Part shown: positions 1 through 13,210 of the stretch, piece after piece
How positions within the stretch are numbered: the stretch's first letter is position 1
Layout of the letters: every line of letters starts with the position of its first letter
Origin: a virus
Taxonomy: Duplodnaviria; Heunggongvirae; Uroviricota; Caudoviricetes
Length of the DNA: 15,265 nt
IMG/VR virus record: IMGVR_UViG_2526164632_000028
Reading direction: 5' to 3' (one strand)
Made by a program: the position numbers and the translations under genes
Notes under the pieces: model-generated
Told to the model about the DNA's origin: nothing
Databases searched by the model: none
Seen by the model: the letters and a program-made list of their open reading frames with translations, nothing else

Positions 1-1119
1 TTAAATAACCAACTTAACCCATTCCTGACCTCGAGTATCGTTATAGCGATCGGTGGTTGCCTGGACTTTATGTCCTAGTAATGTTTTTGTATCGATACCC
101 TGTGCACGGTACAGCCGTTCTGATAGAGAGCGTTGTTCATGAAATGTTGGCGGAGTTTTTCCTGCTGGTGGAATTATCCCAGCCAGATCCCGTGCTTTGG
201 CAAAGTAGTCGCTCAGGTTGTCTTTACTCATCGGCTTCGGTTGTTTCTGGTGCCGACTATGGATTAGATATGGACTTAATATTCTGTCTCGGCACCCATC
301 AATAACTTCTTTTAACGTTATCCCAATGGCATCACAGCGTAGTGTAAGCGGTAACGCCAGACGCATTCTGGTTTTTCCCTGGGTGATATGCAAGTGTTCG
401 TTCCACACATCTGAAAAACGCATGTGGCAAATGTCATCACGGCGCTGACCAGTAACAATCGCAAGAAGCATTGCGTTACGGATAAAGTGTTTTTCAGGCG
501 TTGCATTGTAAATTTTTTGCCAGTCTTCCATGGTGAGCCTGGCTCTGGTTACTTTAGGGATCGGTTTACGGGTAGCCTCCGGAGGATTCCATCCAGGAGG
601 AACTTCCCCTGCATGCTGTGCTTCTTTATAAATATCAACCCATAATCCACGATTTACTCTCGCTGTGCTGACCATGTCTTTATCCAGCCACTCATCCAGT
701 ATTAATGCAAAGTCTCTTACTTCCAGTTCTTTCAATGGGTGGTTTCCCAGACGGGAAACCAGGTATGCAGCCATTCGAGTTTTTTCTTTGTGAGTTGTAG
801 CTGCAATATCTCCATTTTTCAGTCGCGTGTCCTGTATTTTCAGATATCGATCAACCCATGCCTTTAATCTGATACCCCGACGTTTTGTTGCTGACGGACT
901 TTCATCAATTTTGCGCATGAAATATTCAGCTTCTGCTGCAGCTATTCGCTGATTGGCTGTGGAAGCGATTTTTTCTGCCTTACCTTTGTCTGTTCCGAGT
1001 CCGTGAAATTTTCCAGTCACAGGATTTTTATACTGGTAGTAAACTCTGCCAGTTCTGCGATCAAACTTTTCGTAAAGACCGGCTACGTCAGTGCTGTTTT
1101 TTCGTGGCCTCGGTGACAT
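1..1119 (-). CDS. int: site-specific tyrosine integrase, lambda Int family
   Basis: 372-aa ORF with stop at 1-3. C-terminal region ...PPTFHEQRSLSERLY...LGHK...TDRYNDTRGQEW parallels the lambda Int catalytic region (HxxR, LGHK, catalytic Tyr). Start is overlapped by the upstream xis ORF, as in lambda. Confidence 0.9.
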   Translation of the reverse strand: MSPRPRKNSTDVAGLYEKFDRRTGRVYYQYKNPVTGKFHGLGTDKGKAEKIASTANQRIAAAEAEYFMRKIDESPSATKRRGIRLKAWVDRYLKIQDTRLKNGDIAATTHKEKTRMAAYLVSRLGNHPLKELEVRDFALILDEWLDKDMVSTARVNRGLWVDIYKEAQHAGEVPPGWNPPEATRKPIPKVTRARLTMEDWQKIYNATPEKHFIRNAMLLAIVTGQRRDDICHMRFSDVWNEHLHITQGKTRMRLALPLTLRCDAIGITLKEVIDGCRDRILSPYLIHSRHQKQPKPMSKDNLSDYFAKARDLAGIIPPAGKTPPTFHEQRSLSERLYRAQGIDTKTLLGHKVQATTDRYNDTRGQEWVKLVI

Positions 1120-1357
1120 GAGTTAAAATCTCCTTCAGTGCATCATCATCGCCAGTATGAATTTCCGGCGCAATTTCCGTTTCACCAGGCCCAACAAATA
1201 CTGCTCGGCGATCTATCAGCCAACGCCCACGAATTTTTTGTGGCCTTGGAACGATGTATCCTAGTTTTCCGTATTTCACCAGGGTAGTGTTTGTTATTGG
1301 GAGACTGAACCGTTTTGGTTTCCACTCGTCGAGCGTTATCAGGTACTGTTCGCTCAT
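1088..1357 (-). CDS. xis: putative excisionase (Xis-like)
   Basis: 89-aa ORF (MSEQYLITLDEWKPKRF...) directly upstream of int, overlapping the int start by 32 nt. ATG at 1357 with SD GGAG about 9 nt upstream; the tabulated ORF begins at a GTG 9 nt further up. Call is by position and size only. Confidence 0.55.
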   Translation of the reverse strand: MSEQYLITLDEWKPKRFSLPITNTTLVKYGKLGYIVPRPQKIRGRWLIDRRAVFVGPGETEIAPEIHTGDDDALKEILTHVTEATKKQH

Positions 1358-1418
1358 GGCTATCACTCCGGAACGCGCCAGTTGCAGAATATCAACGACA
1401 ACTGGCGACGGTTGAACA

Positions 1419-3890
1419 TTAAAAATCAGCCTGACTCGGGATCAGTTTTTGCCAGATAACTGAAACGTATTTTGCCTGGTAACGGGCGTCATCAAGTGCA
1501 TTATGGCGCTCACCTTCGAATGGAATAGCCGTTCTGGCATCGAAGTCTATGGCTTTCCCCAGCTCAACGATTGTGCGTACATCGCGATCGTTGTAGTAAC
1601 GCCACGGGCAGGGGATCCCCTGCCGTTCGTATGAACGGCGCAAAATCGTGTTGTCGAAGTTGGCTCCATTTCCCCAGACCTGAACAAAAAATTCACCGGA
1701 GTTTTCGTCGATAAATTCCCGCAATTGTAACAGTGCATCATCTAACGGGATTTCATCGGTCATAATGGCAGATTGCGCTTCGCGTGATTGCTTAAGCCAC
1801 CATTTAATGGTGTCCCGATCAATGACTCCGCCAGCAGTTTCCAGATCGATAGTCTTACTAAATTCCGGTCCCATATCTCCGGTTTGCGGATCGAAAAATA
1901 TTGCACCTATTGAGATAATCGGGGCATCGGGATTTTTTCCCATGGTTTCAAGGTCGATCATCAGATGAATCCCCGCTCTGCTGGTGGATGTGAGATTATG
2001 ATGACCGTTCGCCTTAATTAAGGGATCTGACGCCTCGCCAGTTTCACTATCGCTGGCATGATGCTGATTGCCGCCAGTGTTCTCCTTGTGCTGATGCGCA
2101 GTGCCTTCCATTTCCTCCGGATCATTTTCCTGAACTTCAGGCTGATTCTCTCCATCGAATATTTCCTGGTATGTTGCGTCACCCATCACCGCACCACAAT
2201 CAGGGCAGTTGCCGCCACCGCTCTGACCGCAGGCGGTGCAGATCTTTTCCGGTTCCTGTTGCACTACTGGTTCAGGTTGTTTCGTTTCTGGCTCGTTTTG
2301 TTGCGTATTTGGGCTGTTTTGTTCCGCTTTCTGGTCGTTCTGTTCCGTTTCTTGCTGGTTCTGGTTCACAGAATCGCGGGTCTGGATCCCCTTAACCCAT
2401 TTCGGATCATTCGGGTCGCTAATCCCTTCAACAAATTCACCACGTGATACTGCAAGCAGTTCATCGGCGTCAGGCTGGCTGATATTGGCTGCCTGCATAA
2501 TTTTGTTTACTTCGTCAGCGGTAACTTTTACTGACCCTGGTTGTGCGGTCGTGTCAGATGCACCAGTATTTTGTTGTGAACCTGAGTATGTACCGTTTTT
2601 GCGGGCGAAATATTCTTCTTTCGTGATTTCAGTAGCCCCAGCAGACAGCGCCTTATCCAGACCAGAAAGTTTGTTTGCGCGACCGTATTTTTCGCCATCC
2701 TTGTCGGTGAAGAGGAAGTAGAACGGCCCCTCACGCTCTACAGATGGTTCAGCTTCCGGCGCGGTTTCATTTTTTGGGATATCAGATACCTCAGTTTCCA
2801 CTGCATCAGTTTGTGTTTCTGATGACTGGAGAACATCAACAGTGCCCAGGTCTGTTTCTTCATTCTCAAACACGCCCTTTGTCGTCAGGTATTCGCAGAT
2901 ATATTTGTTCAGTGCTACGGGATCTTTGTGAATGTCGATCGAACGTTCACGGACAAGGCCAAAAATAGTCTGGCGGTCGTAGCGAAGGGCATCAGGCTGT
3001 TTGCGCATTGATGCCGAGATACGCTTCCAGTCTTCGCGGCCGTTGTCGATAACTTCATTTTTTGCCCAGCGATGGATGCTGCCGTCAATGTTTCCGGCAT
3101 CCACATCACCAGGCCAGAGAGCGTAGGCCAGTTCGTCATCCAGTGTTTTCCATGTCTGCTTGTATTCGCGATGAATGGCAGCAATGACCGGGCTGATTTT
3201 TCCTGTTGAATTTTCAGTGTACTGTTGATTGGCTCTGGCGCGGGCGAGATCAACAACAGACGTGTATTTTCCGGTTTCCTTGCGTTCGCCTTCGCGACGT
3301 TTTTTCCAGATGCGCATCTCTGCCTGAATTTCGGGCCATTTAGCACCAGGAATACATTTATGCTTAACCCACCCAATGGCGTGCAACTTAAGCTCCGGAT
3401 ACATGGCGTTAACTTCTGGCATTTTCATCAACGCTTCAACGATATGTCCGTCGAATGTTGCCATGTCTTCCTGCAACAATTCCTGTGCGCTAATAACCAT
3501 ATCAACGGTGATGTTTTCACATGTGTCGAACTTAACCATGACAGCGTTCTGTACTTCAGGGGCCAGCTTGTCAAAAGTGACGTTCATCGGATAGGATTCA
3601 GTCTCAACCGGGACAAAAGAAGCAGACTCCTCATCCCAGCGGTTTTCCTGCATATATTCAGCATCCCATGAATCGAGGGCAGGGCGGGGTATGCCAGGTT
3701 TATCCTCGCAGACAATAAATTTATAAGCGCAGTCCTGAGCTGCCGGATAATGTTCCAGGAATTGCCAGTGAAATTTTGCGCGGGCGCGACATTCATCACC
3801 GGCTTCAATGGCAGTGGCTACAGCGACTGCACCTTCTTCCTTTATTGCCTGTTCGTCCGGAATGGCGGCGCAAATAAAGACTTTACTCAT
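1419..3890 (-). CDS. large prophage exonuclease: N-terminal domain of unknown function, acidic Q/E/N-rich linker with zinc ribbon, C-terminal DnaQ-like DEDDh 3'-5' exonuclease domain
   Basis: 823-aa ORF. C-terminal motifs MIDLETMG (Exo I, D-x-E), WGNGANFD (Exo II) and HNALDDARY (Exo III, H-x4-D). Central CTACGQSGGGNCPDCG zinc-ribbon motif in a low-complexity acidic linker. Sits in the lambda exo / Rac recE position; the K-12 ydfE fragment downstream of ydfD may be a truncated homologue (inference). Confidence 0.85.
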   Translation of the reverse strand: MSKVFICAAIPDEQAIKEEGAVAVATAIEAGDECRARAKFHWQFLEHYPAAQDCAYKFIVCEDKPGIPRPALDSWDAEYMQENRWDEESASFVPVETESYPMNVTFDKLAPEVQNAVMVKFDTCENITVDMVISAQELLQEDMATFDGHIVEALMKMPEVNAMYPELKLHAIGWVKHKCIPGAKWPEIQAEMRIWKKRREGERKETGKYTSVVDLARARANQQYTENSTGKISPVIAAIHREYKQTWKTLDDELAYALWPGDVDAGNIDGSIHRWAKNEVIDNGREDWKRISASMRKQPDALRYDRQTIFGLVRERSIDIHKDPVALNKYICEYLTTKGVFENEETDLGTVDVLQSSETQTDAVETEVSDIPKNETAPEAEPSVEREGPFYFLFTDKDGEKYGRANKLSGLDKALSAGATEITKEEYFARKNGTYSGSQQNTGASDTTAQPGSVKVTADEVNKIMQAANISQPDADELLAVSRGEFVEGISDPNDPKWVKGIQTRDSVNQNQQETEQNDQKAEQNSPNTQQNEPETKQPEPVVQQEPEKICTACGQSGGGNCPDCGAVMGDATYQEIFDGENQPEVQENDPEEMEGTAHQHKENTGGNQHHASDSETGEASDPLIKANGHHNLTSTSRAGIHLMIDLETMGKNPDAPIISIGAIFFDPQTGDMGPEFSKTIDLETAGGVIDRDTIKWWLKQSREAQSAIMTDEIPLDDALLQLREFIDENSGEFFVQVWGNGANFDNTILRRSYERQGIPCPWRYYNDRDVRTIVELGKAIDFDARTAIPFEGERHNALDDARYQAKYVSVIWQKLIPSQADF

Positions 3891-3982
3891 TTTGTTTTAC
3901 CTCATTACAGATTTAAGGGTGAACAAATCCCTGCCATTGCTGGCATATAAGAATGAAATCGGATGTTTATTACGGAACTGTT

Positions 3983-4174
3983 TTAAAGACCTGCCGGGAT
4001 TTCGTTATTATCCTGGTGAATAACTTTATCGACCGGGTAACAGTTACCGGGAATTTTCTGTTCGGTTGCTGCAGTCACACACTCCTGCATTGTCCTGTGA
4101 ACACTGACTGCAATATCAACTGGCTCTCCGGAAACAAGAAAAACTGTCAGAACAAGTGCAAATGCTGTATTCAT
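3983..4174 (-). CDS. ydfD: YdfD-like small protein with N-terminal hydrophobic segment (lysis protein family of the dicB operon)
   Basis: 63-aa ORF MNTAFALVLTVFLVSGEPVDIAVSV...NNEIPAGL. Its ATG overlaps the dicB stop (ATGA). Size, position after dicB and sequence match my recollection of Qin YdfD. The tabulated ORF (to 4228) has an unlikely 18-aa extension. Confidence 0.7.
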   Translation of the reverse strand: MNTAFALVLTVFLVSGEPVDIAVSVHRTMQECVTAATEQKIPGNCYPVDKVIHQDNNEIPAGL

Positions 4175-4359
4175 TGCCAGCATCCTTTTTGTATCGGACG
4201 TAAACGGGCCAGCATTGAAAGAATGCATATTTTATTTAATAACTCCCGTTCGTGTTTTCTCTTGTTAATGGCATCTTCAGTAAATACAGGGTTACTGATA
4301 GTGACACCAATTTCAAAACAACCTTCAGACGTATTAACGTTTGGTAATAACGTTTCCAT
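4171..4359 (-). CDS. dicB: cell division inhibitor DicB
   Basis: 62-aa ORF METLLPNVNTSEGCFEIGVTISNPVFTEDAINKRKHERELLNKICILSMLARLRPIQKGCWQ, matching E. coli DicB as I remember it along nearly its whole length. SD GAGGA upstream of ATG at 4359. DicF-like sequence lies immediately upstream on the same strand. Confidence 0.85.
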   Translation of the reverse strand: METLLPNVNTSEGCFEIGVTISNPVFTEDAINKRKHERELLNKICILSMLARLRPIQKGCWQ

Positions 4360-4528
4360 TATCGCGTCCTCAACAATGAATTTTGTGATGCGGTGCCTGG
4401 TGCCTCCAGGTGACGTTAACCAGTTAACAATTAACGCCGGATACAGAGAATCCACCCATAACACTGTTTTTGGTTTTAACTGTTCCGCGTGCGCTCAGCC
4501 GCATTCACCACATCACAAAATTCACTTT

Positions 4529-4586
4529 AAAAAGGGCGGCAGAGCAGTCACGGAGTAAAACTGATACCGCCAAACGTCACCAGAAA
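4529..4586 (-). ncRNA. dicF: DicF small regulatory RNA (ftsZ-targeting sRNA processed from the dicB operon transcript)
   Basis: Minus-strand sequence TTTCTGGTGACGTTTGGCGGTATCAGTTTTACTCCGTGACTGCTCTGCCGCCCTTTTT matches my recollection of E. coli DicF, ending in a GC stem plus U-tract. Located just upstream of dicB as in Qin. Exact ends are uncertain by a few nt. Confidence 0.7.
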
Positions 4587-4920
4587 ATTGATAACAGAGG
4601 GCGTTGCAGCGGGGTTGTCACTTAAGCGTATGGTCAACCTGACAACCCGGTGTCCTCAACGGGGAAGGAATAACCCCGCCATACTTACCGCCGCGCCATT
4701 TCGCGGAGTGCCACAACCGGAAGCGCACGGTCGACGAAAATTTAACGACAGGCTATCTATGAACCAACAACTTCGCCGTGCGCTTTCGCGTTATGCCCTG
4801 ACTTTTCAGGGAGATATCCTTTCAGTAAACTGTCAGTGCCGGATGCTCACCCGTGTCCGGCGCACGCACTCCACCTCACCCGTGGAGAACTCCTTAATTA
4901 CTAACCCTCAGGAGGATGAA

Positions 4921-5658: not shown

Positions 5659-5780
5659 GCTGACCTCATTTCCCCTTAACGCCGGGGTGGCGGAACAAAA
5701 ACCTGCTGCATAGTTAAAGTTGAACCCTGCCGTCATGTTCTTACGCCTCGGGCTGGCTACTTAACCCCTGACCACTGCCG

Positions 5781-5865
5781 GGTAACTCGAAGTATTTCCC
5801 TGCGTTCTGTGGGGCGGGGTGGGTTGGTATGTTGTTAAGGTAACAAGAGTTACCTTTCGAGTCAA
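5781..5865 (-). promoter_or_regulatory. putative leftward early promoter (pL-like) with repressor operator(s)
   Basis: Palindrome GGTAACaagaGTTACC at 5839-5854 and half-site GGTAAC at 5781-5786. On the minus strand, -35 TTGACT (5865-5860), 17-nt spacer, -10 TACCTT (5842-5837), with the operator overlapping spacer and -10. Same half-site as the two sites next to the repressor gene. Confidence 0.45.
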
Positions 5866-5895
5866 TACAATGTTGCAAAAGGTACATTTGAGGGC

Positions 5896-5920
5896 ATAAA
5901 AAACCCGCAATGAATGCGGG
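5896..5920 (-). terminator. rho-independent terminator downstream of the repressor gene
   Basis: Minus-strand hairpin CCCGCA-ttcat-TGCGGG (5920-5904) followed by TTTTTTAT, 8 nt after the repressor stop codon. Confidence 0.6.
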
Positions 5921-5927
5921 TTCTGAC

Positions 5928-6602
5928 TCAGTCTAAGTATTGATGTATTTGTGAAACTTTACCTTTAATGGTGTAACCACCATTCAGTTCGATGGGTTTG
6001 TAAAGCGGATTCAGTGACAACAAATAGATGTTTGGTCCGTCAATCGCAACTTTTTTTAGTGTTACGTTTGGCGTTCCTTCCAATTGGATTAAGATTATTT
6101 TTCCCACCAGTTCTCTAATGTTACTTGAGCATGGTGTGATCAGCACGGTAGATCCGTCGGGGATGGTTGGGAGGCCGTTAGAGTTTGTCATCGCATCTCC
6201 CTCAACATGCAATAAAAAAGAGTTTTCAGCGGTTTTTGTCATGACATCAACCCAGTTATTAATACCAGGAATCTTGGTTACTGGACAACTCATATCCCAA
6301 TAACCAGCCTGTTCCCACGTTAAAACGGGCAACCGGGCGATGTTGTCACTAATGTAAGGGTACTGATTCAGACGCAGATCATCGGTTTTATCGTGACAGT
6401 CCTTTCCATAAAGAATCCATTCAGGAGATTTGGAAAGCAATTTTGACAGTAGATACAAATTCTCACCGTCAGGTTTTGAAGAGCCATTTTCCCATTTTGT
6501 TACGGATACACGAGATATGCCGATTGCTTTCGCAACCTGCTGTTGGGTTAATCCAACGTCTTTTCGACGATTCCGAATACGTTCGCTGATAGTGTTTTTC
6601 AT
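5928..6602 (-). CDS. cI: prophage repressor, P22 C2 / lambda cI type (N-terminal XRE-type HTH, C-terminal S24 LexA-like domain) with Ala at the catalytic Ser position
   Basis: Start taken at ATG 6602 (MKNTISERIRNRRKDVGLTQQQVAKAIGISRVSVTKWENG..., P22 C2-like N-terminus). The tabulated ORF to 6701 begins with TTG and has no RBS. C-terminal domain aligns to the lambda cI S24 region (VEGDAMT vs VEGNSMT; VTLKKV vs FTFKKL). Ala-Gly (QAGY) is present in the linker. Confidence 0.85.
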   Translation of the reverse strand: MKNTISERIRNRRKDVGLTQQQVAKAIGISRVSVTKWENGSSKPDGENLYLLSKLLSKSPEWILYGKDCHDKTDDLRLNQYPYISDNIARLPVLTWEQAGYWDMSCPVTKIPGINNWVDVMTKTAENSFLLHVEGDAMTNSNGLPTIPDGSTVLITPCSSNIRELVGKIILIQLEGTPNVTLKKVAIDGPNIYLLSLNPLYKPIELNGGYTIKGKVSQIHQYLD

Positions 6603-6667
6603 GTAACCAATGTTACTACCAAGTGATGTTGCTATGGTTGACATTGTTATGTAACTATTGTTACCCT
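6603..6667. promoter_or_regulatory. immunity-region operators and divergent promoters (OR/pR/pRM-like)
   Basis: Two palindromes GTAAC-N4-GTTAC at 6603-6616 (abutting the cI start) and 6651-6664. Rightward -35 TTGACA at 6638-6643 with -10 TACCCT near 6662-6667 overlapping the second operator. A leaderless leftward cI transcript with -10 TAACAT (6615-6610) is possible. Confidence 0.45.
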
Positions 6668-6693
6668 TCTGCTCGAAATAACAGGAGAGTTTT

Positions 6694-6908
6694 ATGTTCA
6701 AAGATGATGTTCTGCGCTATTTCAAAAAAAGCGACTAGTAGCTGAGGCTCTTGGAATTTCACATGTGGCTGTTGTGCGGTGGAAAGCAGTTATTCCCAAA
6801 CTTCGCGCAATGGAACTGGATGAAATTACTAACGGTGAATTGAAATACAACCCAGAACTTTACAAGAAGCAGGATAGCACCTCGAACGAAGGAAAGAATG
6901 ATTCATGA
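6694..6908 (+). pseudogene. cro: cro/dicC-like HTH regulator interrupted by a frameshift at an A7 tract
   Basis: ATG 6694 with SD AGGAGAG; reading frame MFKDDVLRYFKKSD stops at 6736-6738. The -1 frame continues (KK)RLVAEALGISHVAVVRWKAVIPKLRAMELDEITNGELKYNPELYKKQDSTSNEGKNDS to TGA at 6906-6908, which overlaps the next gene ATG (ATGA). One extra A in the A7 run (6724-6730) restores a 72-aa Cro/DicC-like protein. Confidence 0.55.
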
Positions 6909-7330
6909 AAATCAAGCATGAACACATCCGCATGGCGATGAATGTCTGGGCGCATCCGGACGGCGAAAAAGTACCGGCTGCGAAAATTACCAAAGCGTAT
7001 TTCGAGCTGGGAATGACGTTCCCGGAACTGTATGACGACAGCCATCCGGAAGCCCTGGCCCGTAATACCCAGAAAATTTTCCGTTGGCTGGATAAAGACA
7101 CCCCTGATGCTGTTGAAAAAATGCAGGCTCTGTTACCGGCGATCGAAAAGGCGATGCCGCCTTTGCTGGTGGCCCGTATGCGCAGCCACAGTTCTGAATA
7201 TTACCGTGAGATCGTCGAACGGAGGGATCGGCTGGTGAAGGATGTCGATGATTTTGTTGCGTCAGCGGTTGTTTTGTATGACCAGATGAATCGCGGCGGC
7301 CCGGCAGGGAATGCTGTGGTGATGCACTAA
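6905..7330 (+). CDS. CII-like / YdaT-family early regulatory protein (putative)
   Basis: 141-aa ORF MKIKHEHIRMAMNVWAHPDGEKVPAAKITKAYFELGMTFPELYDD... in the lambda cII position between cro and the replication genes. N-terminus resembles Rac YdaT as I recall it (unverified). Confidence 0.55.
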   Translation: MKIKHEHIRMAMNVWAHPDGEKVPAAKITKAYFELGMTFPELYDDSHPEALARNTQKIFRWLDKDTPDAVEKMQALLPAIEKAMPPLLVARMRSHSSEYYREIVERRDRLVKDVDDFVASAVVLYDQMNRGGPAGNAVVMH

Positions 7331-7352
7331 AAGCACGGTGTTCGGGGGTTTT

Positions 7353-8315
7353 ATGAGCAGCAAGCTTCATGGTCTTGTCTGGGAAGGGTGCGCCTTCACC
7401 GGCATGATCTTATCCAGGGTGGCGGTTATGGCCCGTCTTGCAGACTACAGCAATGACGAGGGCGTGTCATGGCCTGCCATTGAAACTATCCGGCGTCAGA
7501 TCGGTGCAAGAAGTGAATCCACAGTGAAATCGGCTATTGCAGAACTGGCGAAAGAGGGCTGGCTGACGAAGGAAGAGCGTAAGGTCGGTGGGCGTAATGT
7601 AAGCAATATCTATCGGCTTAATGTGGAAAAACTCGAAGCAGCTGCGGCGGCGGCGCGTGAGTCATATAAACCGAAAAGAAAAATTAGCCCGGCAAAAAAT
7701 GACCCGTTAACAGTTGACCCGTCAAATATTGACCCCTCAACGGTTGACCCGTCAAATTTTGATGGATCAACTGTTGATAAAAAACTGCCGATTAGGGGGG
7801 CGATGATTGACCCCGATCCGTCAGTATTAAAACCTGATCCGTCAGATAAAAGATCTTCTTGTCCGGACGCTTCGCAACCGGACCCGCAGACGGCTGAACA
7901 GGATTTTTTAACCCGACACCCTGACGCGGTTGTGTTCAGTGCGAAAAAACGCCAGTGGGGAAGTCAGGAAGATTTGGTGTGCGCACAGTGGATCTGGGGA
8001 CGAATCGTGAGTCTTTACGAGCAGGCGGCCAGCGATGATGGCGAGATCACTAGACCGAAAGAACCCAACTGGACAGCATGGGCCAATGACGTTCGCACAA
8101 TGCGGATGCTGGATGGCAGAACTCACAGACAAATTTGTGAAATGTTTGGGCGTCTCCAGCGGGATTCGTTCTGGGTAAAAAACATCATGAGTCCGGCAAA
8201 ACTCCGGGAAAAATGGGATGAACTGGTTATCCGCCTGGGGCGTTCGCCTGCGCAGCGTTGCGTGAATCACATTTCTGAACCGGACACTGAAATACCGCCG
8301 GGATTCAGGGGGTGA
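7353..8315 (+). CDS. replication initiator (O-like): N-terminal winged-helix DNA-binding domain, internal iteron-encoded DPxxV repeats, DnaT-like C-terminal domain
   Basis: ATG 7353 with GGGGG SD (tabulated ORF starts at GTG 7338). N-terminal ...SWPAIETIRRQIGARSESTVKSAIAELAKEGWL... C-terminus ...VNHISEPDTEIPPGFRG resembles the E. coli DnaT C-terminus (...SEPDSQIPPGFRG, from memory). Followed immediately by the DnaC-like gene. Confidence 0.8.
   Translation: MSSKLHGLVWEGCAFTGMILSRVAVMARLADYSNDEGVSWPAIETIRRQIGARSESTVKSAIAELAKEGWLTKEERKVGGRNVSNIYRLNVEKLEAAAAAARESYKPKRKISPAKNDPLTVDPSNIDPSTVDPSNFDGSTVDKKLPIRGAMIDPDPSVLKPDPSDKRSSCPDASQPDPQTAEQDFLTRHPDAVVFSAKKRQWGSQEDLVCAQWIWGRIVSLYEQAASDDGEITRPKEPNWTAWANDVRTMRMLDGRTHRQICEMFGRLQRDSFWVKNIMSPAKLREKWDELVIRLGRSPAQRCVNHISEPDTEIPPGFRG
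7699..7785. repeat. iteron array (putative replication origin) inside the initiator gene
   Basis: Six units with exact 15-bp period starting at 7699, 7714, 7729, 7744, 7759 and 7774; core TTGACCCGTCAA is itself palindromic (TTGAC/GTCAA). Followed by A-rich GATAAAAAACTG. Encodes the peptide repeat DPLTV-DPSNI-DPSTV-DPSNF-DGSTV. Confidence 0.6.
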
Positions 8316-8321
8316 CGTGTC

Positions 8322-9068
8322 ATGAAAAACATTGCGGCAGTTGGGGTTCTTGAACGTATTCGCAGACTTGCACCACAGGGGTCGGTTCCACCGTACCGGA
8401 CGGTGGAGGAGTGGCGGGAATGGCAACTTGCTGAAGGACGAAAACGCAGCGAGGAGATTAACCGCCAGAATCGCCAGTTGCGGGTGGAAAAAATCCTGAA
8501 TCGTTCGGGCATCCAGCCTCTGCACAGCAAATGCTCGTTTGCAAATTATCAGGTGCAGAACGACGGGCAAAAATACGCGCTGAGCCAGGCCAAATCCATA
8601 GCTGACGAACTGATGACCGGGTGCACGAATTTTGTGTTCAGCGGTAAAACCGGCACCGGGAAAAATCACCTTGCAGCGGCGATGGGCAACCGGCTGATGG
8701 TGAAGGGGCGCAGCGTGATTATCGTCACCGTGTCTGACGTCATGAGCGTGTTGCATGACAGCTACGACAACGGCAAATCCGGGGAAAAATTTTTACAGGA
8801 GCTTTGCGGGGTTGATTTGCTGGTCCTGGATGAAATAGGCGTTCAGCGGGAGACGAAAAACGAGCAGGTGGTATTGCACCAGATAATTGATCGCCGGACA
8901 GCATCACTGTGCAGTGTCGGGATGTTAACAAACCTGAATCATGCCGCAATGAGTACGCTTCTTGGTGAGAGGATTATGGACCGCATGACCATGAACGGTG
9001 GTCGATGGGTGACGTTTAACTGGGATAGCTGGCGTCCAAATGTCAGCAATATGAGGGTTGTGAAGTAA
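8322..9068 (+). CDS. dnaC: DnaC-like replicative helicase loader (AAA+ ATPase)
   Basis: 248-aa ORF. Walker A FSGKTGTGKNHLAAAMG and Walker B DLLVLDEIGVQ; collinear with E. coli DnaC from N-terminus (MKN...) to C-terminus (...WVTFNWDSWR). Start is 7 nt after the initiator stop. Confidence 0.9.
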   Translation: MKNIAAVGVLERIRRLAPQGSVPPYRTVEEWREWQLAEGRKRSEEINRQNRQLRVEKILNRSGIQPLHSKCSFANYQVQNDGQKYALSQAKSIADELMTGCTNFVFSGKTGTGKNHLAAAMGNRLMVKGRSVIIVTVSDVMSVLHDSYDNGKSGEKFLQELCGVDLLVLDEIGVQRETKNEQVVLHQIIDRRTASLCSVGMLTNLNHAAMSTLLGERIMDRMTMNGGRWVTFNWDSWRPNVSNMRVVK

Positions 9069-9089
9069 TTTTGTCCGGAGGAAATTTTA

Positions 9090-9860
9090 ATGGAAACCGT
9101 ATCTGACGCACTGAAAGCACTGAAAAAAGCCTCTTCACATGTGGTGGCAGCTCGCCTTGGAATCAGTCGTGAAGAGGCTGTCAACGAGCTGTGGGAACTC
9201 AAAAGAAATGGCGTCGTTGATAAAACTGGTCACACCTGGTTTCTGGCTGGCGAAGGTGAATCCCGGGTAACCGAAGAGCGGCCAGTAAAATCTGAAGCAC
9301 AGGATATGCTGACCGGGGAGGTCGAACAAAAAGTTACCGCAGACATGATGATTGAGTTTATCGGTCAGGATGGGGCTAAAACGTGTGAGGAACTGGCGGG
9401 TAAGTTCGGTGTCAGTACTCGCAAGGTTGCTTCCACGCTGGCGGTGGTAACCGCAACGGGGCGGCTGGCACGCGTTAATCAGAACGGTAAATTTCGTTAC
9501 TGCATGCCGGGCGATAATTTACCAGCAGAGCCGAAAGCCGCGCTGGTAACGGAAAGTGATGGTAAGGCCTTTCCTCAGCCAGCAGGTGCTGCGTTACCAG
9601 GCCGGGAAGCCGCAACACAGGAAGAAATTAAAACAGAAACTGTGGCGGACATTGTGCAGTCGTTGCCATCGTTTACCGAAACGCAAGCAGATGAGCTGAT
9701 TTTTCCGTCCCTGCGCAGGGCAAACCTGGCGCTGCGCAGGGCGAAAAGTGATGTTCAGAAGTGGGAGCGAGTCTGCGCCGCGCTGCGGGAGCTGAACAAG
9801 CACCGGGATATTGTTCGACAGATTACTGATTCTTCCCGCCGTGTTGTATCGGAAAAGTGA
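9090..9860 (+). CDS. hypothetical protein with two winged-helix-like repeats
   Basis: 256-aa ORF; ATG 9090 with SD GGAGG. Internal repeats AARLGISREEAVNELWELKRNGVVDKTGHTWFL and AGKFGVSTRKVASTLAVVTATGRLARVNQNGKFRYCM. No homology recognised. Confidence 0.65.
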   Translation: METVSDALKALKKASSHVVAARLGISREEAVNELWELKRNGVVDKTGHTWFLAGEGESRVTEERPVKSEAQDMLTGEVEQKVTADMMIEFIGQDGAKTCEELAGKFGVSTRKVASTLAVVTATGRLARVNQNGKFRYCMPGDNLPAEPKAALVTESDGKAFPQPAGAALPGREAATQEEIKTETVADIVQSLPSFTETQADELIFPSLRRANLALRRAKSDVQKWERVCAALRELNKHRDIVRQITDSSRRVVSEK

Positions 9861-9875
9861 TTGCCGGAGGCGCTT

Positions 9876-10298
9876 ATGGCAAAAGTATTTACACAAGAAG
9901 AGCGGGAAAAAATTAAAGGGCAGGTTGTTGAGCTAGTACGCCGGAGTGGGCGCGAGACGTTACGGCAACTGGAAGCCAAGACAGGTGCGACAAGATATCT
10001 GATGAGTGTTCTCGCCAGAGAGCTGGTTGCCAGTGGCGATGTATACAACTCTGGTTACGGGTTATTCCCGTCTGAACAGGCGCGTAAGGACTGGCAAAAC
10101 GCCCGCAAAAAACTCTCAAGGGCAAATCTGAAGAAACCATCTGTGGTTGATCCTGACCTTATCTGGCCATTACCAGACGGAGAAATACGCCGCTACGACA
10201 GGCGTCAAAACATAATCTGTAGCGAGTGCCGGAAGAGCGAAGCTATGCAGCGTGTACTGGCTTTCTATCAGGGTAATTTTCAGAAGGTGCTGTTGTGA
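9876..10298 (+). CDS. hypothetical protein with one winged-helix-like module related to the upstream gene
   Basis: ATG 9876 with SD GGAGG at 9866-9870 (tabulated ORF starts at TTG 9861). Motif VELVRRSGRETLRQLEAKTGATRYLMSVLARELVASGDV resembles the repeats in 9090-9860. C-terminal CSEC motif. Confidence 0.6.
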   Translation: MAKVFTQEEREKIKGQVVELVRRSGRETLRQLEAKTGATRYLMSVLARELVASGDVYNSGYGLFPSEQARKDWQNARKKLSRANLKKPSVVDPDLIWPLPDGEIRRYDRRQNIICSECRKSEAMQRVLAFYQGNFQKVLL

Positions 10299-10332
10299 GC
10301 CAAATTAACAATCGGAACTTCGTGAAGAGAAA

Positions 10333-10403
10333 GCATAATCCAAATCTGAATAATTAAGTTCAGCACTGTAAATAAAATTTAATCCTTAACTGGAGGTATA
10401 TCT
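10333..10403 (+). repeat. module-junction repeat, copy 1 (second copy at 11600-11668)
   Basis: AATCCAAATCTGAATAATTAAGTTCAGCACTGTAAATAAAATTTAATCCTTAACTGGAGGTATATCT versus AATCCAGAACTGAATAATTAAATTTAGCTCTGTTAAAAATTTAATCCTTAACCGGAGGGATTTCT, about 85% identical by eye. Copy 1 ends at the SD and ATG of ORF 10404. Confidence 0.55.
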
Positions 10404-10616
10404 ATGTCAAATACACAGAAAATTATTAACACTGAAAAATATAACGAGTGGGTGAAAAAATTCTCTGAGCAGATTTTTAAAATTACTGGCGACGAGAATG
10501 TGGCAAAAAATGAATTGGAACCGTGGACACCTGAAGGAAACGCACCAAATTATTGCTGGTGGGAGGTTGATCCGGTTGATGCTGCAAATGAAGCCATGAG
10601 TTACCACAACGATTAA
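10404..10616 (+). CDS. hypothetical small protein (70 aa), first gene of the cargo island
   Basis: ATG 10404 with SD GGAGG 7 nt upstream; MSNTQKIINTEKYNEWVKKFSEQIF...; AT-rich codon usage distinct from flanking modules. Confidence 0.55.
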   Translation: MSNTQKIINTEKYNEWVKKFSEQIFKITGDENVAKNELEPWTPEGNAPNYCWWEVDPVDAANEAMSYHND

Positions 10617-10621
10617 TGTCG

Positions 10622-10648
10622 GGAGGCCGCCCGAAAGGGCGGTAAGAA
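10622..10648 (+). promoter_or_regulatory. SD-plus-hairpin translation leader (GGAGG followed by a CCGCCC-GAAA-GGGCGG stem-loop) preceding ORF 10649
   Basis: GGAGG at 10622-10626; 6-bp GC stem with GAAA tetraloop at 10627-10642; ATG at 10649. No U-tract, so not a terminator. Near-identical 23-nt copy at 11686-11708. Confidence 0.5.
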
Positions 10649-10867
10649 ATGACTACATTATTCAGAAAAGAATATCCGCAAAAAAGTAGGGCGACAGAAT
10701 TTTTGTTTCTCATTCTGTTTATCGTATTGATGATACCGATATCCCCTCTAATTTTTGTCTGGGCAATCGGGAAAATAATTGAGCCAGTTACTGAATTGTA
10801 TAACGACGTGGTATGGGCGTCATTCAACACACTGCACAATAAAATTAATCCGTATAAGGAAAACTGA
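10649..10867 (+). CDS. hypothetical small membrane protein (72 aa, one predicted transmembrane helix)
   Basis: MTTLFRKEYPQKSRATEFLFLILFIVLMIPISPLIFVWAIGKII...; hydrophobic stretch of about 25 aa after a basic N-terminus; preceded by the SD-hairpin leader. Confidence 0.55.
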   Translation: MTTLFRKEYPQKSRATEFLFLILFIVLMIPISPLIFVWAIGKIIEPVTELYNDVVWASFNTLHNKINPYKEN

Positions 10868-10868
10868 T

Positions 10869-11132
10869 ATGGCAACTTTGACAAAAAAAGAACGGGCATG
10901 GTTGAACGAATTACAGGAAGTTCTTGATCGCTGTCCATCACCGAAAAAAATTGGCTTTTACACCATTGGCGATAAAAGCATTTACCTGTATGACCTACGC
11001 CGCATGGATGAAATCATGGAGGCTCTTGATAATCGTTCGTCGATGGATTGGTGTGTTGCTGTTCATGATATGAATGCAGGGTTTGATGAAAAGATTTTGT
11101 TCCCCTCATCAGTTGAAAGCACTGCGGGTTAA
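10869..11132 (+). CDS. hypothetical protein (87 aa)
   Basis: ATG 10869 one nt after the upstream stop, with SD AAGGAAAA; MATLTKKERAWLNELQEVLDRCPSPKKIGFYTIGDKSIYLYDLRRMDEIMEALD... Confidence 0.55.
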   Translation: MATLTKKERAWLNELQEVLDRCPSPKKIGFYTIGDKSIYLYDLRRMDEIMEALDNRSSMDWCVAVHDMNAGFDEKILFPSSVESTAG

Positions 11133-11142
11133 GGAGTAACAC

Positions 11143-11286
11143 ATGACCACTATTACCAAAGAACGTATTGAATTGTTCATTAAATTTTCAGGAGGCGGTA
11201 CTGTGAGTGAAATTAGCTATCAGGCTTCAATTACCGCTGGCATTCGCATCAAAGGAGAGGAGCATGGAAATAAAACCAGAGGATGA
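11143..11286 (+). CDS. hypothetical small protein (47 aa), overlapping the next gene
   Basis: ATG 11143 with strong SD AAGGAG 7 nt upstream; MTTITKERIELFIKFSGGGTVSEISYQASITAGIRIKGEEHGNKTRG. Overlaps ORF 11264 by 23 nt in a different frame. Confidence 0.4.
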   Translation: MTTITKERIELFIKFSGGGTVSEISYQASITAGIRIKGEEHGNKTRG

Positions 11287-11620
11287 GTTAAGCAATATCG
11301 TTTTATTTCCGGTAAAAGAGGATGACCCTCGTAATCAGGTTAATTTTCTTTATGAGCCATCGGAAAGACCATATTGTCATCACGCCTCTGTCCGGGTTGA
11401 CGAAAAAGAGCGTCAGGTCCGCTGTAAAATCTGCGGTGCAGTTGTGGAACCATTTGACTGGATGCTCTCTGTGGCGAAAAGAGAAACCAGACTGGCAGAT
11501 GATGTAAGGCTCTTGCGTCAGGAGGAGCGGGAAAGGCGAAAAAATATAGAAAAGCTAATTCAGATTGAGCGTAACGCGAAAGCGCGGATACGCAGGGCGA
11601 CAAAATCCAGAACTGAATAA
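11264..11620 (+). CDS. hypothetical zinc-finger-like protein with basic coiled-coil C-terminus (118 aa)
   Basis: ATG 11264 with SD AAGGAG (alternative GTG start at 11207). Motif YCHHASVRVDEKERQVRCKICG, then an Arg/Lys/Glu-rich tail LLRQEERERRKNIEKLIQIERNAKARIRRATKSRTE. Confidence 0.55.
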   Translation: MEIKPEDELSNIVLFPVKEDDPRNQVNFLYEPSERPYCHHASVRVDEKERQVRCKICGAVVEPFDWMLSVAKRETRLADDVRLLRQEERERRKNIEKLIQIERNAKARIRRATKSRTE

Positions 11621-11668
11621 TTAAATTTAGCTCTGTTAAAAATTTAATCCTTAACCGGAGGGATTTCT
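11600..11668 (+). repeat. module-junction repeat, copy 2
   Basis: See copy 1 at 10333-10403. Copy 2 begins within the last codons of ORF 11264-11620 and is followed by the second SD-hairpin leader. Confidence 0.55.
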
Positions 11669-11684
11669 GCACCCTCAGAACATC

Positions 11685-11713
11685 AGGAGGCCGCCCGAAA
11701 GGGCGGTAGTTAA
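11685..11713 (+). promoter_or_regulatory. SD-plus-hairpin translation leader, copy 2, preceding ORF 11714
   Basis: AGGAGG at 11685-11690; CCGCCC-GAAA-GGGCGG at 11691-11706; ATG at 11714. Confidence 0.5.
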
Positions 11714-11896
11714 ATGCGAAAGTTTAAAATAATTATTGAAACGGGAATAGCCGGTGGAGATTTCGAGGATGAATTCGAAGTGGATGATGATGCGACGCCT
11801 GATGAAATACATGACGAAGCAAAAGATATTTTCTTTAACTACTGCAATTACTCATATCACGAAATAAAAGACGAAGAGGAAGAACAAAATGGCTGA
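11714..11896 (+). CDS. hypothetical highly acidic small protein (60 aa)
   Basis: MRKFKIIIETGIAGGDFEDEFEVDDDATPDEIHDEAKDIFFNYCNYSYHEIKDEEEEQNG, Asp/Glu-rich; preceded by the SD-hairpin leader. Confidence 0.5.
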   Translation: MRKFKIIIETGIAGGDFEDEFEVDDDATPDEIHDEAKDIFFNYCNYSYHEIKDEEEEQNG

Positions 11897-12065
11897 TTTT
11901 GGTTCAACTAAATACAACGTCGGTTTTGAAGAATGGCATGAACTGTTAATGGACTATGCAGAGTTACGTGGTGGCAGTGCTGCTGATGCTGAAGCATGGC
12001 GTGATGATTATGAAGCAGGAAAAACTCCGGTCGAAGCATATTGTGATGAGTGGGGCGATGAATGA
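11889..12065 (+). CDS. hypothetical acidic small protein (58 aa)
   Basis: ATG 11889 lies 5 nt before the upstream stop (ATGGCTGA); MADFGSTKYNVGFEEWHELLMDYAELRGGSAADAEAWRDDYEAGKTPVEAYCDEWGDE. Confidence 0.5.
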   Translation: MADFGSTKYNVGFEEWHELLMDYAELRGGSAADAEAWRDDYEAGKTPVEAYCDEWGDE

Positions 12066-12377
12066 GCGAGGTTAATTATCAGGAAGGGCATGAAACGGCG
12101 GGGCAAGCAAAAACAGTGGCATGGCGATATCGCTACGTGAAAAAAAGGCGTTACGGACTTTCAGGGGAAGTAGTGGTCTGGTGACTGGAAATATGTACCG
12201 AAAAAAGAGGATTGTAACGACAGGCCGAACTATGAAATTCAGGCCTTATTCACTGCCCCGCCAGTCCCGGTTACATCAGAAGAACTGGTTAAAGCTGTGC
12301 ACTTTTATGAACAACTAAAATGCGAAAATCCACCAGCATCCGGAAACCTGATTACAGATTCCCAGATAAGGCAATGA
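12062..12377 (+). pseudogene. hypothetical gene apparently split by a +1 frameshift near 12174-12184
   Basis: ATG 12062 overlaps the upstream stop (ATGA); frame gives MSEVNYQEGHETAGQAKTVAWRYRYVKKRRYGLSGEVVVW then TGA at 12182-12184. The +1 frame is open from 12174 to 12377 with protein-like content (...DWKYVPKKEDCNDRPNYEIQALFTAPPVPVTSEELVKAVHFYEQLKCENPPASGNLITDSQIRQ) but no start codon. Confidence 0.35.
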
Positions 12378-12547
12378 GCTACCTGGCGCAGAACGGGCTG
12401 ATAAGTATGGGGAATGTTTTACGATGAATATTTAGACTAAAGAGTTTGTAACGCTATGTAAGTGATTTTTTCTGGTTTAGATATTTATATGTCCGGCTAA
12501 ATTGAGGTGTGTTTAAATGTTATTGCACATTGATTGTAGGGGGAATA

Positions 12548-12685
12548 ATGAAAAACGCATTGCAGTTTTTGTTTGTTGCGTTCTGGTTGTTCGCATCATG
12601 TATGCCCATCATCTTCACAGCAAGGTATATGGAAAAAGTTGATGTTTTGATATTAATGTTTGGACATATAAATGCCCTTTTTTAG
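12548..12685 (+). CDS. hypothetical 45-aa hydrophobic peptide (candidate small membrane protein or toxin)
   Basis: ATG 12548 with SD AGGGGG 5-8 nt upstream; MKNALQFLFVAFWLFASCMPIIFTARYMEKVDVLILMFGHINALF. Below the 60-aa cutoff of the ORF table. In an AT-rich intergenic stretch upstream of the hok locus. Confidence 0.4.
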   Translation: MKNALQFLFVAFWLFASCMPIIFTARYMEKVDVLILMFGHINALF

Positions 12686-12928
12686 GGGTGTTCATGGCGG
12701 TCATGTGCATTGAATACTGGCGGTAAATACAGCGAACGCCATTGGTTTAGTTGGATATTTACTGTGCCGGACAAAAACGGTTTGCGGGGAAATCTTAGTT
12801 AAGTAGAATGACTGCGGGTGCTTGAGGCTATCTGTCTCAGGCATGAACACCAAAAGGCAGATAGAGAAAAGCCCCAGTTAACATTACGCGTCCTGCAAGA
12901 CGCTTAACATTAATCTGAGGCCATATCT

Positions 12929-12988
12929 ATGCGACACATAGAGATTAGCCTCTTACGGACCGAAAGGTCAAGGAGAAGCAGGCTATGA
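12929..12988 (+). CDS. mok-like leader ORF coupled to hok (19 codons)
   Basis: ATG 12929 with SD GAGG 9 nt upstream; MRHIEISLLRTERSRRSRL; its TGA (12986-12988) overlaps the hok ATG (12985-12987). Confidence 0.4.
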   Translation: MRHIEISLLRTERSRRSRL

Positions 12989-13140
12989 AGCAGCAAAAGG
13001 CGATGTTAATCGCCCTGATCGTCATCTGTTTAACCGTCATAGTGACGGCACTGGTAACGAGGAAAGACCTCTGCGAGGTACGAATCCGAACCGGCCAGAC
13101 GGAGGTCGCTGTCTTCACAGCTTACGAACCTGAGGAGTAA
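12985..13140 (+). CDS. hokD: Hok-family type I toxin (HokD/RelF-like)
   Basis: 51-aa ORF MKQQKAMLIALIVICLTVIVTALVTRKDLCEVRIRTGQTEVAVFTAYEPEE, recognised as Hok/Gef family. Followed by a 9-bp-stem GAAA hairpin (13148-13169) and a terminator. In Qin, hokD lies next to rem and ydfU, as here. Confidence 0.85.
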   Translation: MKQQKAMLIALIVICLTVIVTALVTRKDLCEVRIRTGQTEVAVFTAYEPEE

Positions 13141-13210
13141 GAGACCAGGCGAGGGAGAAATCCCTCGCCACCTCTGATGAGTCAGGCATCCTCAACGCAC
13201 CCGCACTTAA

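What the first reader, a model, noticed from the sequence alone, without database searches (positions are those of the whole stretch)
6694..6908. cro/dicC-like gene interrupted at an A7 homopolymer; real lesion, slippage site or sequencing error
Translation from the well-placed ATG 6694 stops after 14 codons. The rest of a typical Cro/DicC-like HTH protein is in the -1 frame and ends in an ATGA overlap with the next gene, which argues that frame is the real gene body. One additional A in the 6724-6730 run would restore a 72-aa protein. Together with the Ser-to-Ala repressor this would make the prophage doubly biased toward stable lysogeny. Alternatively, the A-run could support transcriptional or ribosomal slippage that yields some full-length Cro.
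Basis: seen in the sequence. Interest (0 to 1): 0.6.

Follow-up and report, generated by a model that had tools for sequence, protein, structure and literature searches.

The report
One-base-short A-run breaks prophage cro
An ordinary P22-type cro gene of an E. coli lambdoid prophage is recorded with seven A's where nearly all relatives have eight, which is a sequencing miscall or a private slippage mutation and not a programmed frameshift.

Summary
ATG 6694 opens a frame that stops at TAG 6736-6738 after 14 codons. The rest of the gene lies in the -1 frame up to TGA 6906-6908, which overlaps the ATG of the next gene. One extra A in the 6724-6730 run gives a 71-aa protein (not 72). That protein matches Pfam P22_Cro over its full length and aligns without gaps to P22 Cro.

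A8 is the normal state. Of 694 complete E. coli genomes carrying this gene, 671 have the exact A8 81-mer, 2 have A7 and 2 have A9. IMG/VR contigs are 84 A8 to 1 A7, and metagenome contigs are 13 of 13 A8. A 69%-identical Salmonella relative also has an in-frame A8. The other A7 carriers sit in different prophages, so the contractions are independent.

Between 5830 and 15265 the window differs privately from its four closest relatives by one substitution and three one-base homopolymer contractions. That pattern points to homopolymer under-calling (about 0.6). A genuine private mutation is less likely (about 0.33), and programmed recoding is not supported (about 0.03).

If the A7 is real, the allele could be leaky, because its zero frame reads C-AAA-AAA, a known -1 slippery site in E. 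coli. The repressor's Ser-to-Ala change is shared by the whole family and is not a second lesion. Interest is low.

The parts
5928..6602 (-). CI-type repressor gene with an HTH_3 domain and a Peptidase_S24-like domain. The catalytic-Ser position is Ala (GDAM). It is divergent from cro.
   Evidence: Pfam HTH_3 at 3.5e-17 and Peptidase_S24 at 1.8e-16. Alignment to lambda CI 3BDN puts Ala opposite Ser149 and keeps the Ala-Gly site and the Lys. GDAM occurs in 92 of 92 related loci that carry the motif.
6603..6616 (.). Operator-like palindrome GTAACCAATGTTAC in the cI-cro intergenic region.
   Evidence: The pattern GTAAC-N4-GTTAC gives 3 exact matches in the window against 0.25 expected.
6651..6664 (.). 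Operator-like palindrome GTAACTATTGTTAC, just upstream of cro. A conserved TTGACA lies at 6638-6643.
   Evidence: The palindrome is invariant in the alignment with E. coli and Salmonella relatives. The consensus scan found no canonical -10 hexamer, so the promoter assignment is only inferred.
5840..5853 (.). Third operator-like palindrome GTAACAAGAGTTAC, on the far side of the repressor gene in an OL-like position.
6683..6687 (+). Shine-Dalgarno sequence AGGAG, 6 nt upstream of the cro ATG.
   Evidence: Read directly from the sequence. It is conserved in all four aligned relatives.
6694..6738 (+). 5' part of cro in frame 0: 14 codons (MFKDDVLRYFKKSD) followed by TAG.
   Evidence: The first 12 residues (through the two AAA codons) are identical to the intact 71-aa Cro WP_000471549.1 of relatives.
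6724..6730 (+). A7 homopolymer, one base shorter than the A8 of relatives. In frame 0 it reads C-AAA-AAA-A.
6729..6908 (+). 3' part of cro in the -1 frame (AAG CGA CTA ... TCA TGA). It encodes the helix-turn-helix and the C-terminus.
   Evidence: This part alone matches PF14549 positions 25-59 at 2.2e-08. TGA overlaps ATG 6905.
6905..7330 (+). YdaT-family (cII-position) gene, joined to cro by an ATGA overlap.
   Evidence: Pfam YdaT_toxin at 2.8e-10. Annotated as a YdaT family protein in relatives.

Best explanation
The locus is the standard cro gene of an E. coli lambdoid prophage that sits next to potC in its closest relatives. It belongs to the P22-Cro/DicC-like family, encodes 71 aa, and is transcribed divergently from a CI-type repressor across GTAAC-N4-GTTAC operators. 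Its wild-type sequence has TTC AAA AAA AAG (A8), which encodes a KKK loop between helix 1 and the helix-turn-helix.

In this window the tract is recorded one base short. I consider the most likely cause to be homopolymer under-calling in the assembly the window came from. On that reading the real DNA has A8, Cro is intact, and nothing unusual happens.

Shown: the gene identity, the frameshift, A8 as the population norm, and further homopolymer contractions private to this window. Inferred: that these contractions are read or assembly errors rather than mutations.
For: - The gene is one unit split by a 1-nt loss. The repaired protein matches PF14549 over its full length and aligns without gaps to P22 Cro.
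- A8 is the norm. Of 694 complete E. coli genomes, 671 have the exact A8 81-mer, 2 have A7 and 2 have A9. IMG/VR has 84 A8 and 1 A7. Metagenome contigs are 13 of 13 A8. A Salmonella relative has an in-frame A8, and a KNK variant has an interrupted run.
- The two nearest complete-genome relatives (99.7-99.8% identity, next to potC), and the two IMG/VR contigs closest to the window, all have A8 and an intact Cro.
- In 5830-15265 the window's private differences from those four relatives are one substitution (15223) and three 1-nt contractions. All three are in the longest A/T runs: A8 to A7, T7 to T6 at 12678, and T6 to T5 at 13230. No exact T6 version was found among 1,563 genomes, and no full-length exact T5 version among 2,128 genomes.
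- Natural E. coli mutation spectra, even in mismatch-repair-deficient lines, give about one small indel per seven substitutions (0.85 against 6.02 per CDS, PMC8510543). Three of four events being indels is therefore unexpected, at roughly P 0.006 to 0.05 by my own binomial estimate.
- One of the other A7 assemblies (strain 492) has two more 'frameshifted' genes in the same prophage. This suggests that A7 calls tend to occur in error-prone assemblies.
Against: - No reads are available, so the call cannot be verified.
- The error-profile argument rests on only four window-private events.
- T5 at 13230 and T6 at 12678 do occur in a few diverged IMG/VR prophages (8 contigs and 1 contig), so these runs can vary naturally.
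- Four other 7-base runs in the window agree with the relatives.
- cro is not needed in a lysogen, so a real frameshift would be neutral and could persist.
- A7 and A9 at about 0.3% each among complete genomes could equally be real slippage alleles.
Confidence: 0.6

Rival explanations
1. The A7 is a genuine, strain-private replication-slippage mutation (A8 to A7) that turns cro into a pseudogene. Frame 0 then yields a 14-aa peptide. Translational coupling to the YdaT/cII-like gene is lost, and the prophage is impaired in switching to and sustaining lytic growth. Some full-length Cro may still be made by unprogrammed -1 ribosomal slippage at C-AAA-AAA, which would give exactly the wild-type 71-aa sequence.
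For: - A/T runs of 8 are mutational hot spots, and indel rate depends on run length (PMC8510543, PMC1088944).
- A7 occurs independently in at least three other prophage backgrounds: L002 next to yccA, L003 next to a tRNA-Ser gene and mtfA, and L012. A9 occurs in two genomes.
- The protein database holds other broken forms of this gene (P0014, and P0015 with P0018).
- The prophage lineage already carries a 'frameshifted; internal stop' gene that the window shares.
- On leakiness: C-AAA-AAA in pDEST17 attB1 gives 25-60% -1 ribosomal frameshifting in E. coli, verified by protein sequencing (PMC1851650).
Against: - The excess of homopolymer contractions over substitutions in the window fits miscalling better than a natural mutation spectrum (PMC8510543).
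- All four closest relatives have A8.
- The pDEST17 efficiencies come from T7-driven over-expression and may not transfer.
- There is no stimulatory structure here. The region downstream of the run folds less well than shuffled sequence, z = +1.9, and there is no Shine-Dalgarno-like element upstream.
Confidence: 0.33
2. The split cro is a designed recoding or phase-variation device. The A-run would be maintained so that transcriptional slippage, -1 ribosomal frameshifting or reversible DNA slippage sets the Cro dose and hence prophage inducibility.
For: - An A8 in the same codon positions is kept in a Salmonella relative with only 69% protein identity.
- Both A7 and A9 alleles exist.
- C-AAA-AAA is slippery in E. 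coli (PMC1851650).
- Runs of 8-9 A support productive transcriptional slippage in some bacteria (PMC1088944).
Against: - The out-of-frame arrangement is not conserved. About 97% or more of carriers have an in-frame A8, and off-length alleles are about 0.3% each, far below the level expected of a contingency locus.
- A relative with KNK interrupts the run with no other change, and P22 Cro has GTQ at that position. The run is therefore not required.
- E. coli RNA polymerase needs at least 7 T, and more A than that, for detectable slippage (PMC6260861).
- No stimulators were found.
- AAA is the common Lys codon in E. coli (background knowledge), so an A8 from KKK is unremarkable.
Confidence: 0.03
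3. There is a different gene structure. The true product would be the short -1-frame ORF from GTG 6765 (47 aa) or GTG 6774 (44 aa, as PGAP annotates A7 alleles), and the ATG 6694 mini-ORF would be a leader peptide.
For: PGAP calls a 44-aa 'hypothetical protein' in both complete A7 genomes. A 47-aa form (P0014) is in the protein database.
Against: - These ORFs start inside the recognition helix of the P22_Cro fold, at profile position 25 of 60, and have no Shine-Dalgarno sequence.
- The 12 residues encoded before the frameshift are identical to the N-terminus of the intact protein and match the profile from position 2.
- These calls appear only where the run is A7.
Confidence: 0.02

Closest known systems
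RefSeq WP_000471549.1, 'Cro/CI family transcriptional regulator' (71 aa) of E. coli lambdoid prophages
   Same: The protein is identical once one A is added. The neighbours are also the same: a divergent LexA-family/CI-like repressor upstream and an ATGA-overlapping YdaT-family gene downstream.
   Different: The window has A7 instead of A8, so the ORF is split.
Bacteriophage P22 Cro (PDB 1RZS; Pfam PF14549 P22_Cro)
   Same: The two align without gaps over residues 1-59 (E 9.3e-12). The helix-turn-helix core 'AxALGIS..AV..WK..IP' is shared, and the gene sits in the same place in the immunity region, next to a C2/CI-like repressor.
   Different: Identity is only about 45%. The loop is KKK here and GTQ in P22. 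This protein has a 10-aa longer C-terminal tail. The operators are different (GTAAC-N4-GTTAC).
DicC of the E. coli Qin prophage (NCBIfam NF007282)
   Same: It is a Cro analogue of a dicB/DicF-carrying lambdoid prophage, and the profile match covers positions 1-68 of 75. DicF RNA and dicB are present in this window's left operon.
   Different: The score of 56 bits is far below the subfamily cut-off of 130, so this is DicC-like and not DicC.
The C-AAA-AAA -1 ribosomal frameshift site of the Gateway pDEST17 attB1 sequence (PMC1851650), and IS1 / dnaX A-rich shift sites
   Same: The same heptamer, C-AAA-AAA, is in the zero frame. A -1 slip of tRNA-Lys would enter exactly the frame that holds the rest of cro.
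   Different: The site here is not conserved as a shift site. No stimulators were found. No expression data exist for this locus. The reported 25-60% efficiency was measured under T7 over-expression.

Membership tests
P22_Cro family (Pfam PF14549) | Whole-protein score above the Pfam gathering threshold, with full-length coverage of the 60-position profile. | tested here: met
   The repaired 71-aa protein scores 59.4 bits against a 30.2 cut-off, covering profile positions 2-59 of 60. It aligns without gaps to P22 Cro 1RZS. It also matches PHROG 409, transcriptional regulator, at 1e-22.
P22_Cro family (Pfam PF14549) | An intact single ORF encoding the domain in this sequence. | tested here: not met
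   As recorded, the domain is split between frame 0 (6694-6738) and the -1 frame (up to 6908) at the A7 run.
DicC subfamily (NCBIfam NF007282) | Score at or above the curated cut-off of 130 bits. | tested here: not met
   56.1 bits, E 3.2e-15. This is a relative of DicC, not a member of the subfamily.
Programmed -1 ribosomal frameshifting (dnaX / IS type) | The two-frame arrangement and the shift site are conserved among homologues. | tested here: not met
   A8 with a single in-frame ORF is found in 671 of 694 genomes, 84 of 85 IMG/VR contigs, 13 of 13 metagenome contigs and a Salmonella relative.
Programmed -1 ribosomal frameshifting (dnaX / IS type) | A slippery heptamer in the zero frame. 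| tested here: inconclusive
   C-AAA-AAA is in frame 0. It is not a canonical X-XXY-YYZ heptamer, but it is documented as slippery in E. coli (PMC1851650). Efficiency at this locus is unknown.
Programmed -1 ribosomal frameshifting (dnaX / IS type) | Stimulatory elements: an upstream internal Shine-Dalgarno sequence and/or a downstream stable hairpin or pseudoknot. | tested here: not met
   The stretch 6720-6800 folds at -11.9 kcal/mol, weaker than the shuffled mean of -17.95 (z = +1.9). No GGAGG-like element lies in the 20 nt upstream.
Programmed transcriptional slippage | An A/T run long enough for the host RNA polymerase, typically 9, and for E. coli at least 7 T and more than that for A. 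| tested here: not met
   The run is A7 on the sense strand. Thresholds are taken from PMC1088944 and PMC6260861.
Phase-variable contingency locus (simple-sequence repeat switch) | Frequent on/off length variation among related isolates. | tested here: not met
   Off-length alleles are 2 A7 and 2 A9 among 694 genomes. Within-clone switching could not be tested.
Sequencing or assembly homopolymer error | Read-level evidence that the true run length differs from the assembled one. | not testable with these tools
   There is only indirect support: three window-private homopolymer contractions against one private substitution in 9.4 kb.

The most novel reading that the evidence does not exclude
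The A7 is real, and the allele is not null. Ribosomes slip -1 on C-AAA-AAA, or RNA polymerase adds an A, often enough to make a reduced dose of wild-type 71-aa Cro. The A8/A7/A9 tract in cro would then act as a natural, reversible dimmer of prophage inducibility across E. coli lineages.
Probability: 0.06. Interest if true: 0.45.

Novelty: already known. Interest (0 to 1): 0.12.

Why it matters
It matters mainly for annotation hygiene. The split cro should be annotated as one frameshifted Cro/CI-family gene (or corrected to A8), not as a 44-47-aa hypothetical protein.

It should also not be combined with the repressor's Ser-to-Ala change to argue that this prophage is 'locked'. That change is the normal state of this repressor family.

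If the A7 proved real, this would be one more cro-defective, probably poorly inducible prophage. It would also offer a convenient natural test case for unprogrammed -1 slippage at C-AAA-AAA. Neither outcome would surprise a specialist.

Tried and rejected
- **Source of the window.** I looked for the source genome to judge its sequencing quality. There is no 100% match among E. coli complete genomes; the best matches are 99.8% (FDAARGOS_1059) and 99.7% (O111:H2 12A). None of the IMG/VR or metagenome contigs with the A7, T6 or T5 variants is the window.
- **GTDB species-representative genomes.** An exact-pattern scan found 0 hits. A protein-based scan confirmed 0 relatives. This gave no extra phylogenetic depth.
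- **Phage collection (INPHARED).** Only the 3' end of cro and the start of the next gene matched at DNA level, in 8 phages. None covered the A-run.
- **Alternative start codons.** There is none in the -1 frame upstream of the run, because a stop lies at 6705-6707. The first start is GTG 6765, inside the helix-turn-helix, so I rejected it.
- **Frameshift stimulators.** None were found.
- **Known RNA elements.** Rfam finds nothing at the site. It finds only DicF and sok elsewhere in the window.
- **Consensus sigma-70 promoter scan.** No hit in 5750-6950, so the PR assignment stays inferred.
- **G4/G5 difference at 4661.** I considered it a fourth miscall but rejected that. Both lengths are common among relatives, 28 loci against 15.

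Full report
**Observation.**
- A Shine-Dalgarno sequence AGGAG (6683-6687) precedes ATG 6694.
- Frame 0 gives MFKDDVLRYFKKSD and stops at TAG 6736-6738.
- The A-run is exactly seven bases (6724-6730).
- The -1 frame is open from 6708 to TGA 6906-6908. It encodes ...KKRLVAEALGISHVAVVRWKAVIPKLRAMELDEITNGELKYNPELYKKQDSTSNEGKNDS, and its stop overlaps ATG 6905 of the next gene (ATGA).
- The -1 frame has a stop at 6705-6707, and its first start codon is GTG 6765.
- Adding one A gives a 71-aa protein, not 72.

**What the gene is.**
The repaired protein matches Pfam P22_Cro (PF14549) over profile positions 2-59 of 60, with E 2.9e-16 and 59.4 bits against a cut-off of 30.2. It matches PHROG 409, 'transcriptional regulator', at 1e-22. 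It aligns without gaps to phage P22 Cro (PDB 1RZS) over residues 1-59, straight across the frameshift point. The KKK encoded by the A-run lies opposite GTQ of P22 Cro, a non-conserved loop.

It also resembles DicC (NCBIfam NF007282, 56 bits), but that score is far below the 130-bit cut-off. 'cro/dicC-like' is therefore a fair description of similarity and not of membership.

The context is a lambdoid immunity region.
- A divergent CI-type repressor lies at 5928-6602 on the minus strand, with HTH_3 and Peptidase_S24 domains.
- Three GTAAC-N4-GTTAC palindromes lie at 5840, 6603 and 6651, against 0.25 expected by chance.
- Downstream are a YdaT-family gene in the cII position, a replication-initiator-like gene (annotated helix-turn-helix domain protein in the relatives) and a DnaC-like ATPase gene.
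- The left operon carries ydfC, DicF RNA and dicB.
- The closest relatives sit next to potC.

**Comparison with relatives.**
- **E. coli complete genomes.** 694 of 5,426 carry this cro. With 80-82-nt queries differing only in run length, 671 match the A8 version exactly, 2 match A7 and 2 match A9. The remaining 19 carry substitutions, and the examples listed have A8 length. A8 copies are annotated as the 71-aa Cro/CI family regulator WP_000471549.1.
- **IMG/VR.** 84 of 85 contigs have A8 and one has A7.
- **Metagenome contigs.** 13 of 13 have A8.
- **More distant relatives.** A Salmonella relative with 69% protein identity has the same in-frame TTC AAA AAA AAG. An 83%-identical variant reads KNK (AAA AAT AAA), so the run can be broken without consequence.
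- **The other A7 carriers.** L002 lies next to yccA, L003 lies next to a tRNA-Ser gene and mtfA, and L012 is a third prophage. All differ from the window's prophage, so these are independent events. In the two complete A7 genomes, PGAP simply calls a 44-aa hypothetical protein from the 3' part.

A single in-frame ORF is therefore the conserved state, and the split arrangement is a rare, scattered exception.

**Artefact or mutation?**
The window's source was not found in any collection. The best matches are 99.8% and 99.7% identical.

I compared the window with its four nearest relatives, L004, L005, L064 and L053.
- Positions 1-4655 are identical to L005.
- Across 5830-15265 the window-private differences are one substitution (15223) and three single-base contractions.
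- All three contractions are in the longest A/T runs: A8 to A7 in cro, T7 to T6 at 12678-12683, and T6 to T5 at 13230-13234.
- By run length in the relatives, the window is contracted at 1 of 1 eight-base runs, 1 of 5 seven-base runs, about 1 of 35 six-base runs and none of the roughly 57 five-base runs.
- No exact T6 version exists among 1,563 E. coli genomes that carry that segment. No full-length exact T5 version exists among 2,128 genomes.

In E. coli mutation-accumulation data, small indels are about one-seventh as frequent as substitutions even without mismatch repair (0.85 against 6.02 per CDS, PMC8510543). Three indels among four private events is therefore unexpected for natural mutation. 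The pattern is typical of homopolymer under-calling. One other A7 assembly (strain 492) also has two further 'frameshifted' genes in the same prophage.

There are points against this reading.
- There are only four events and no reads.
- T5 and T6 alleles do occur in a few diverged IMG/VR prophages.
- cro is dispensable in a lysogen, so a real frameshift could persist.

I put the artefact at about 0.6 and a genuine private mutation at about 0.33.

**Could slippage rescue an A7 allele?**
In frame 0 the site reads C-AAA-AAA-AGC. A -1 slip of tRNA-Lys would continue with AAG CGA ... and give exactly the wild-type protein.

The same heptamer in the pDEST17 attB1 site causes 25-60% -1 ribosomal frameshifting in E. 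coli. That was shown by Edman and mass-spectrometric sequencing with a homogeneous mRNA, but under T7 over-expression (PMC1851650). Single-tRNA slips on A-AAA in IS1 and potato virus M are only 0.3-1% efficient, as cited in the same paper.

At this locus there is no upstream Shine-Dalgarno-like element. The downstream 80 nt fold less well than shuffled sequence, z = +1.9.

Transcriptional slippage is unlikely to contribute much. E. coli RNA polymerase needs at least 7 T, and more A than that, for detectable slippage (PMC6260861), and nine is the usual length at which selection against such runs appears (PMC1088944).

A real A7 allele might therefore be leaky through unprogrammed ribosomal slippage. 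This is inference and not a designed mechanism.

**The 'doubly biased toward lysogeny' idea.**
The repressor does have Ala where lambda CI has the catalytic Ser149: GDAM here against GNSM in lambda. The Ala-Gly site and the Lys are retained. However, the same GDAM is present in all 92 related loci that carry the motif, nearly all of which have an intact A8 cro. It is a property of this repressor family. Such a repressor would presumably be inactivated by a route other than self-cleavage, which is my inference. It is not a second lesion in this prophage.

**Verdict.**
The feature is a one-base contraction of a normally in-frame A8 tract in a well-known Cro family gene. It is most likely a sequencing miscall and otherwise an ordinary private frameshift. 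Programmed recoding or phase variation is not supported. Novelty: already known. Interest: low.

Noticed in passing
window 5928-6602 (-), motif at about residues 139-142 of the 224-aa protein: The CI-type repressor has GDAM in place of the S24 catalytic GDSM (lambda Ser149 to Ala) and keeps the Ala-Gly site and the catalytic Lys. The change is present in all 92 related loci that carry the motif. This looks like a family of CI repressors that do not cleave themselves, presumably induced by another route such as an antirepressor.
   Followed up: partly
window 12678-12683 and 13230-13234: There are two more homopolymer contractions relative to the nearest relatives (T7 to T6 and T6 to T5). The first is intergenic. 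The second falls in a 59-aa 'hypothetical protein' annotated in relatives. No exact full-length match to either version exists among E. coli complete genomes, but each occurs in a few diverged IMG/VR contigs.
   Followed up: yes
window 5840-5853, 6603-6616, 6651-6664: Three exact GTAAC-N4-GTTAC palindromes flank the repressor gene (0.25 expected by chance). They are probably the OL and OR operators of this immunity type. A conserved TTGACA lies at 6638-6643, but the scan found no consensus -10 hexamer.
   Followed up: partly
window 5928-6644 vs 5928-6602: In relatives PGAP starts the repressor at the ATG equivalent to 6644 (238 aa), which would run across the operator at 6603-6616. Alignment to P22 C2 and lambda CI begins near residue 5 of the 224-aa form that starts at ATG 6602, which looks like the more plausible start.
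   Followed up: no
window 4534-4585 (-) and 12816-12987 (+): Rfam finds DicF sRNA (76.7 bits) downstream of ydfC and upstream of dicB. It also finds a sok antitoxin RNA (106.7 bits) next to hokD. This is a Qin/Rac-like accessory set in this prophage.
   Followed up: no
window 1160-1171: A 12-nt in-frame length difference in the excisionase gene relative to strain 12A (258 nt there against 270 nt here). The sequence around it contains a repeated AATTTCCG motif. FDAARGOS_1059 has the same length as the window.
   Followed up: no
window 12632-12639; L005 about 12946-15651: The closest relative, FDAARGOS_1059, carries an IS679 (IS66-family) insertion at this point. The two flanking alignments overlap by 8 bp, consistent with a target-site duplication. 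The window has the empty site.
   Followed up: no
window about 12060-12430 (equivalent to L004 12357-12722): Relatives annotate a 'frameshifted; internal stop' hypothetical gene here, and the window is identical to them over this stretch. The prophage lineage therefore already carries at least one decayed gene apart from cro.
   Followed up: no
window 4661-4664: The G4 run differs from G5 in the nearest relatives, but both lengths are common among related loci (28 against 15). This is an ordinary intergenic polymorphism inside a small recombinant patch (4656-4902) and not a miscall.
   Followed up: yes
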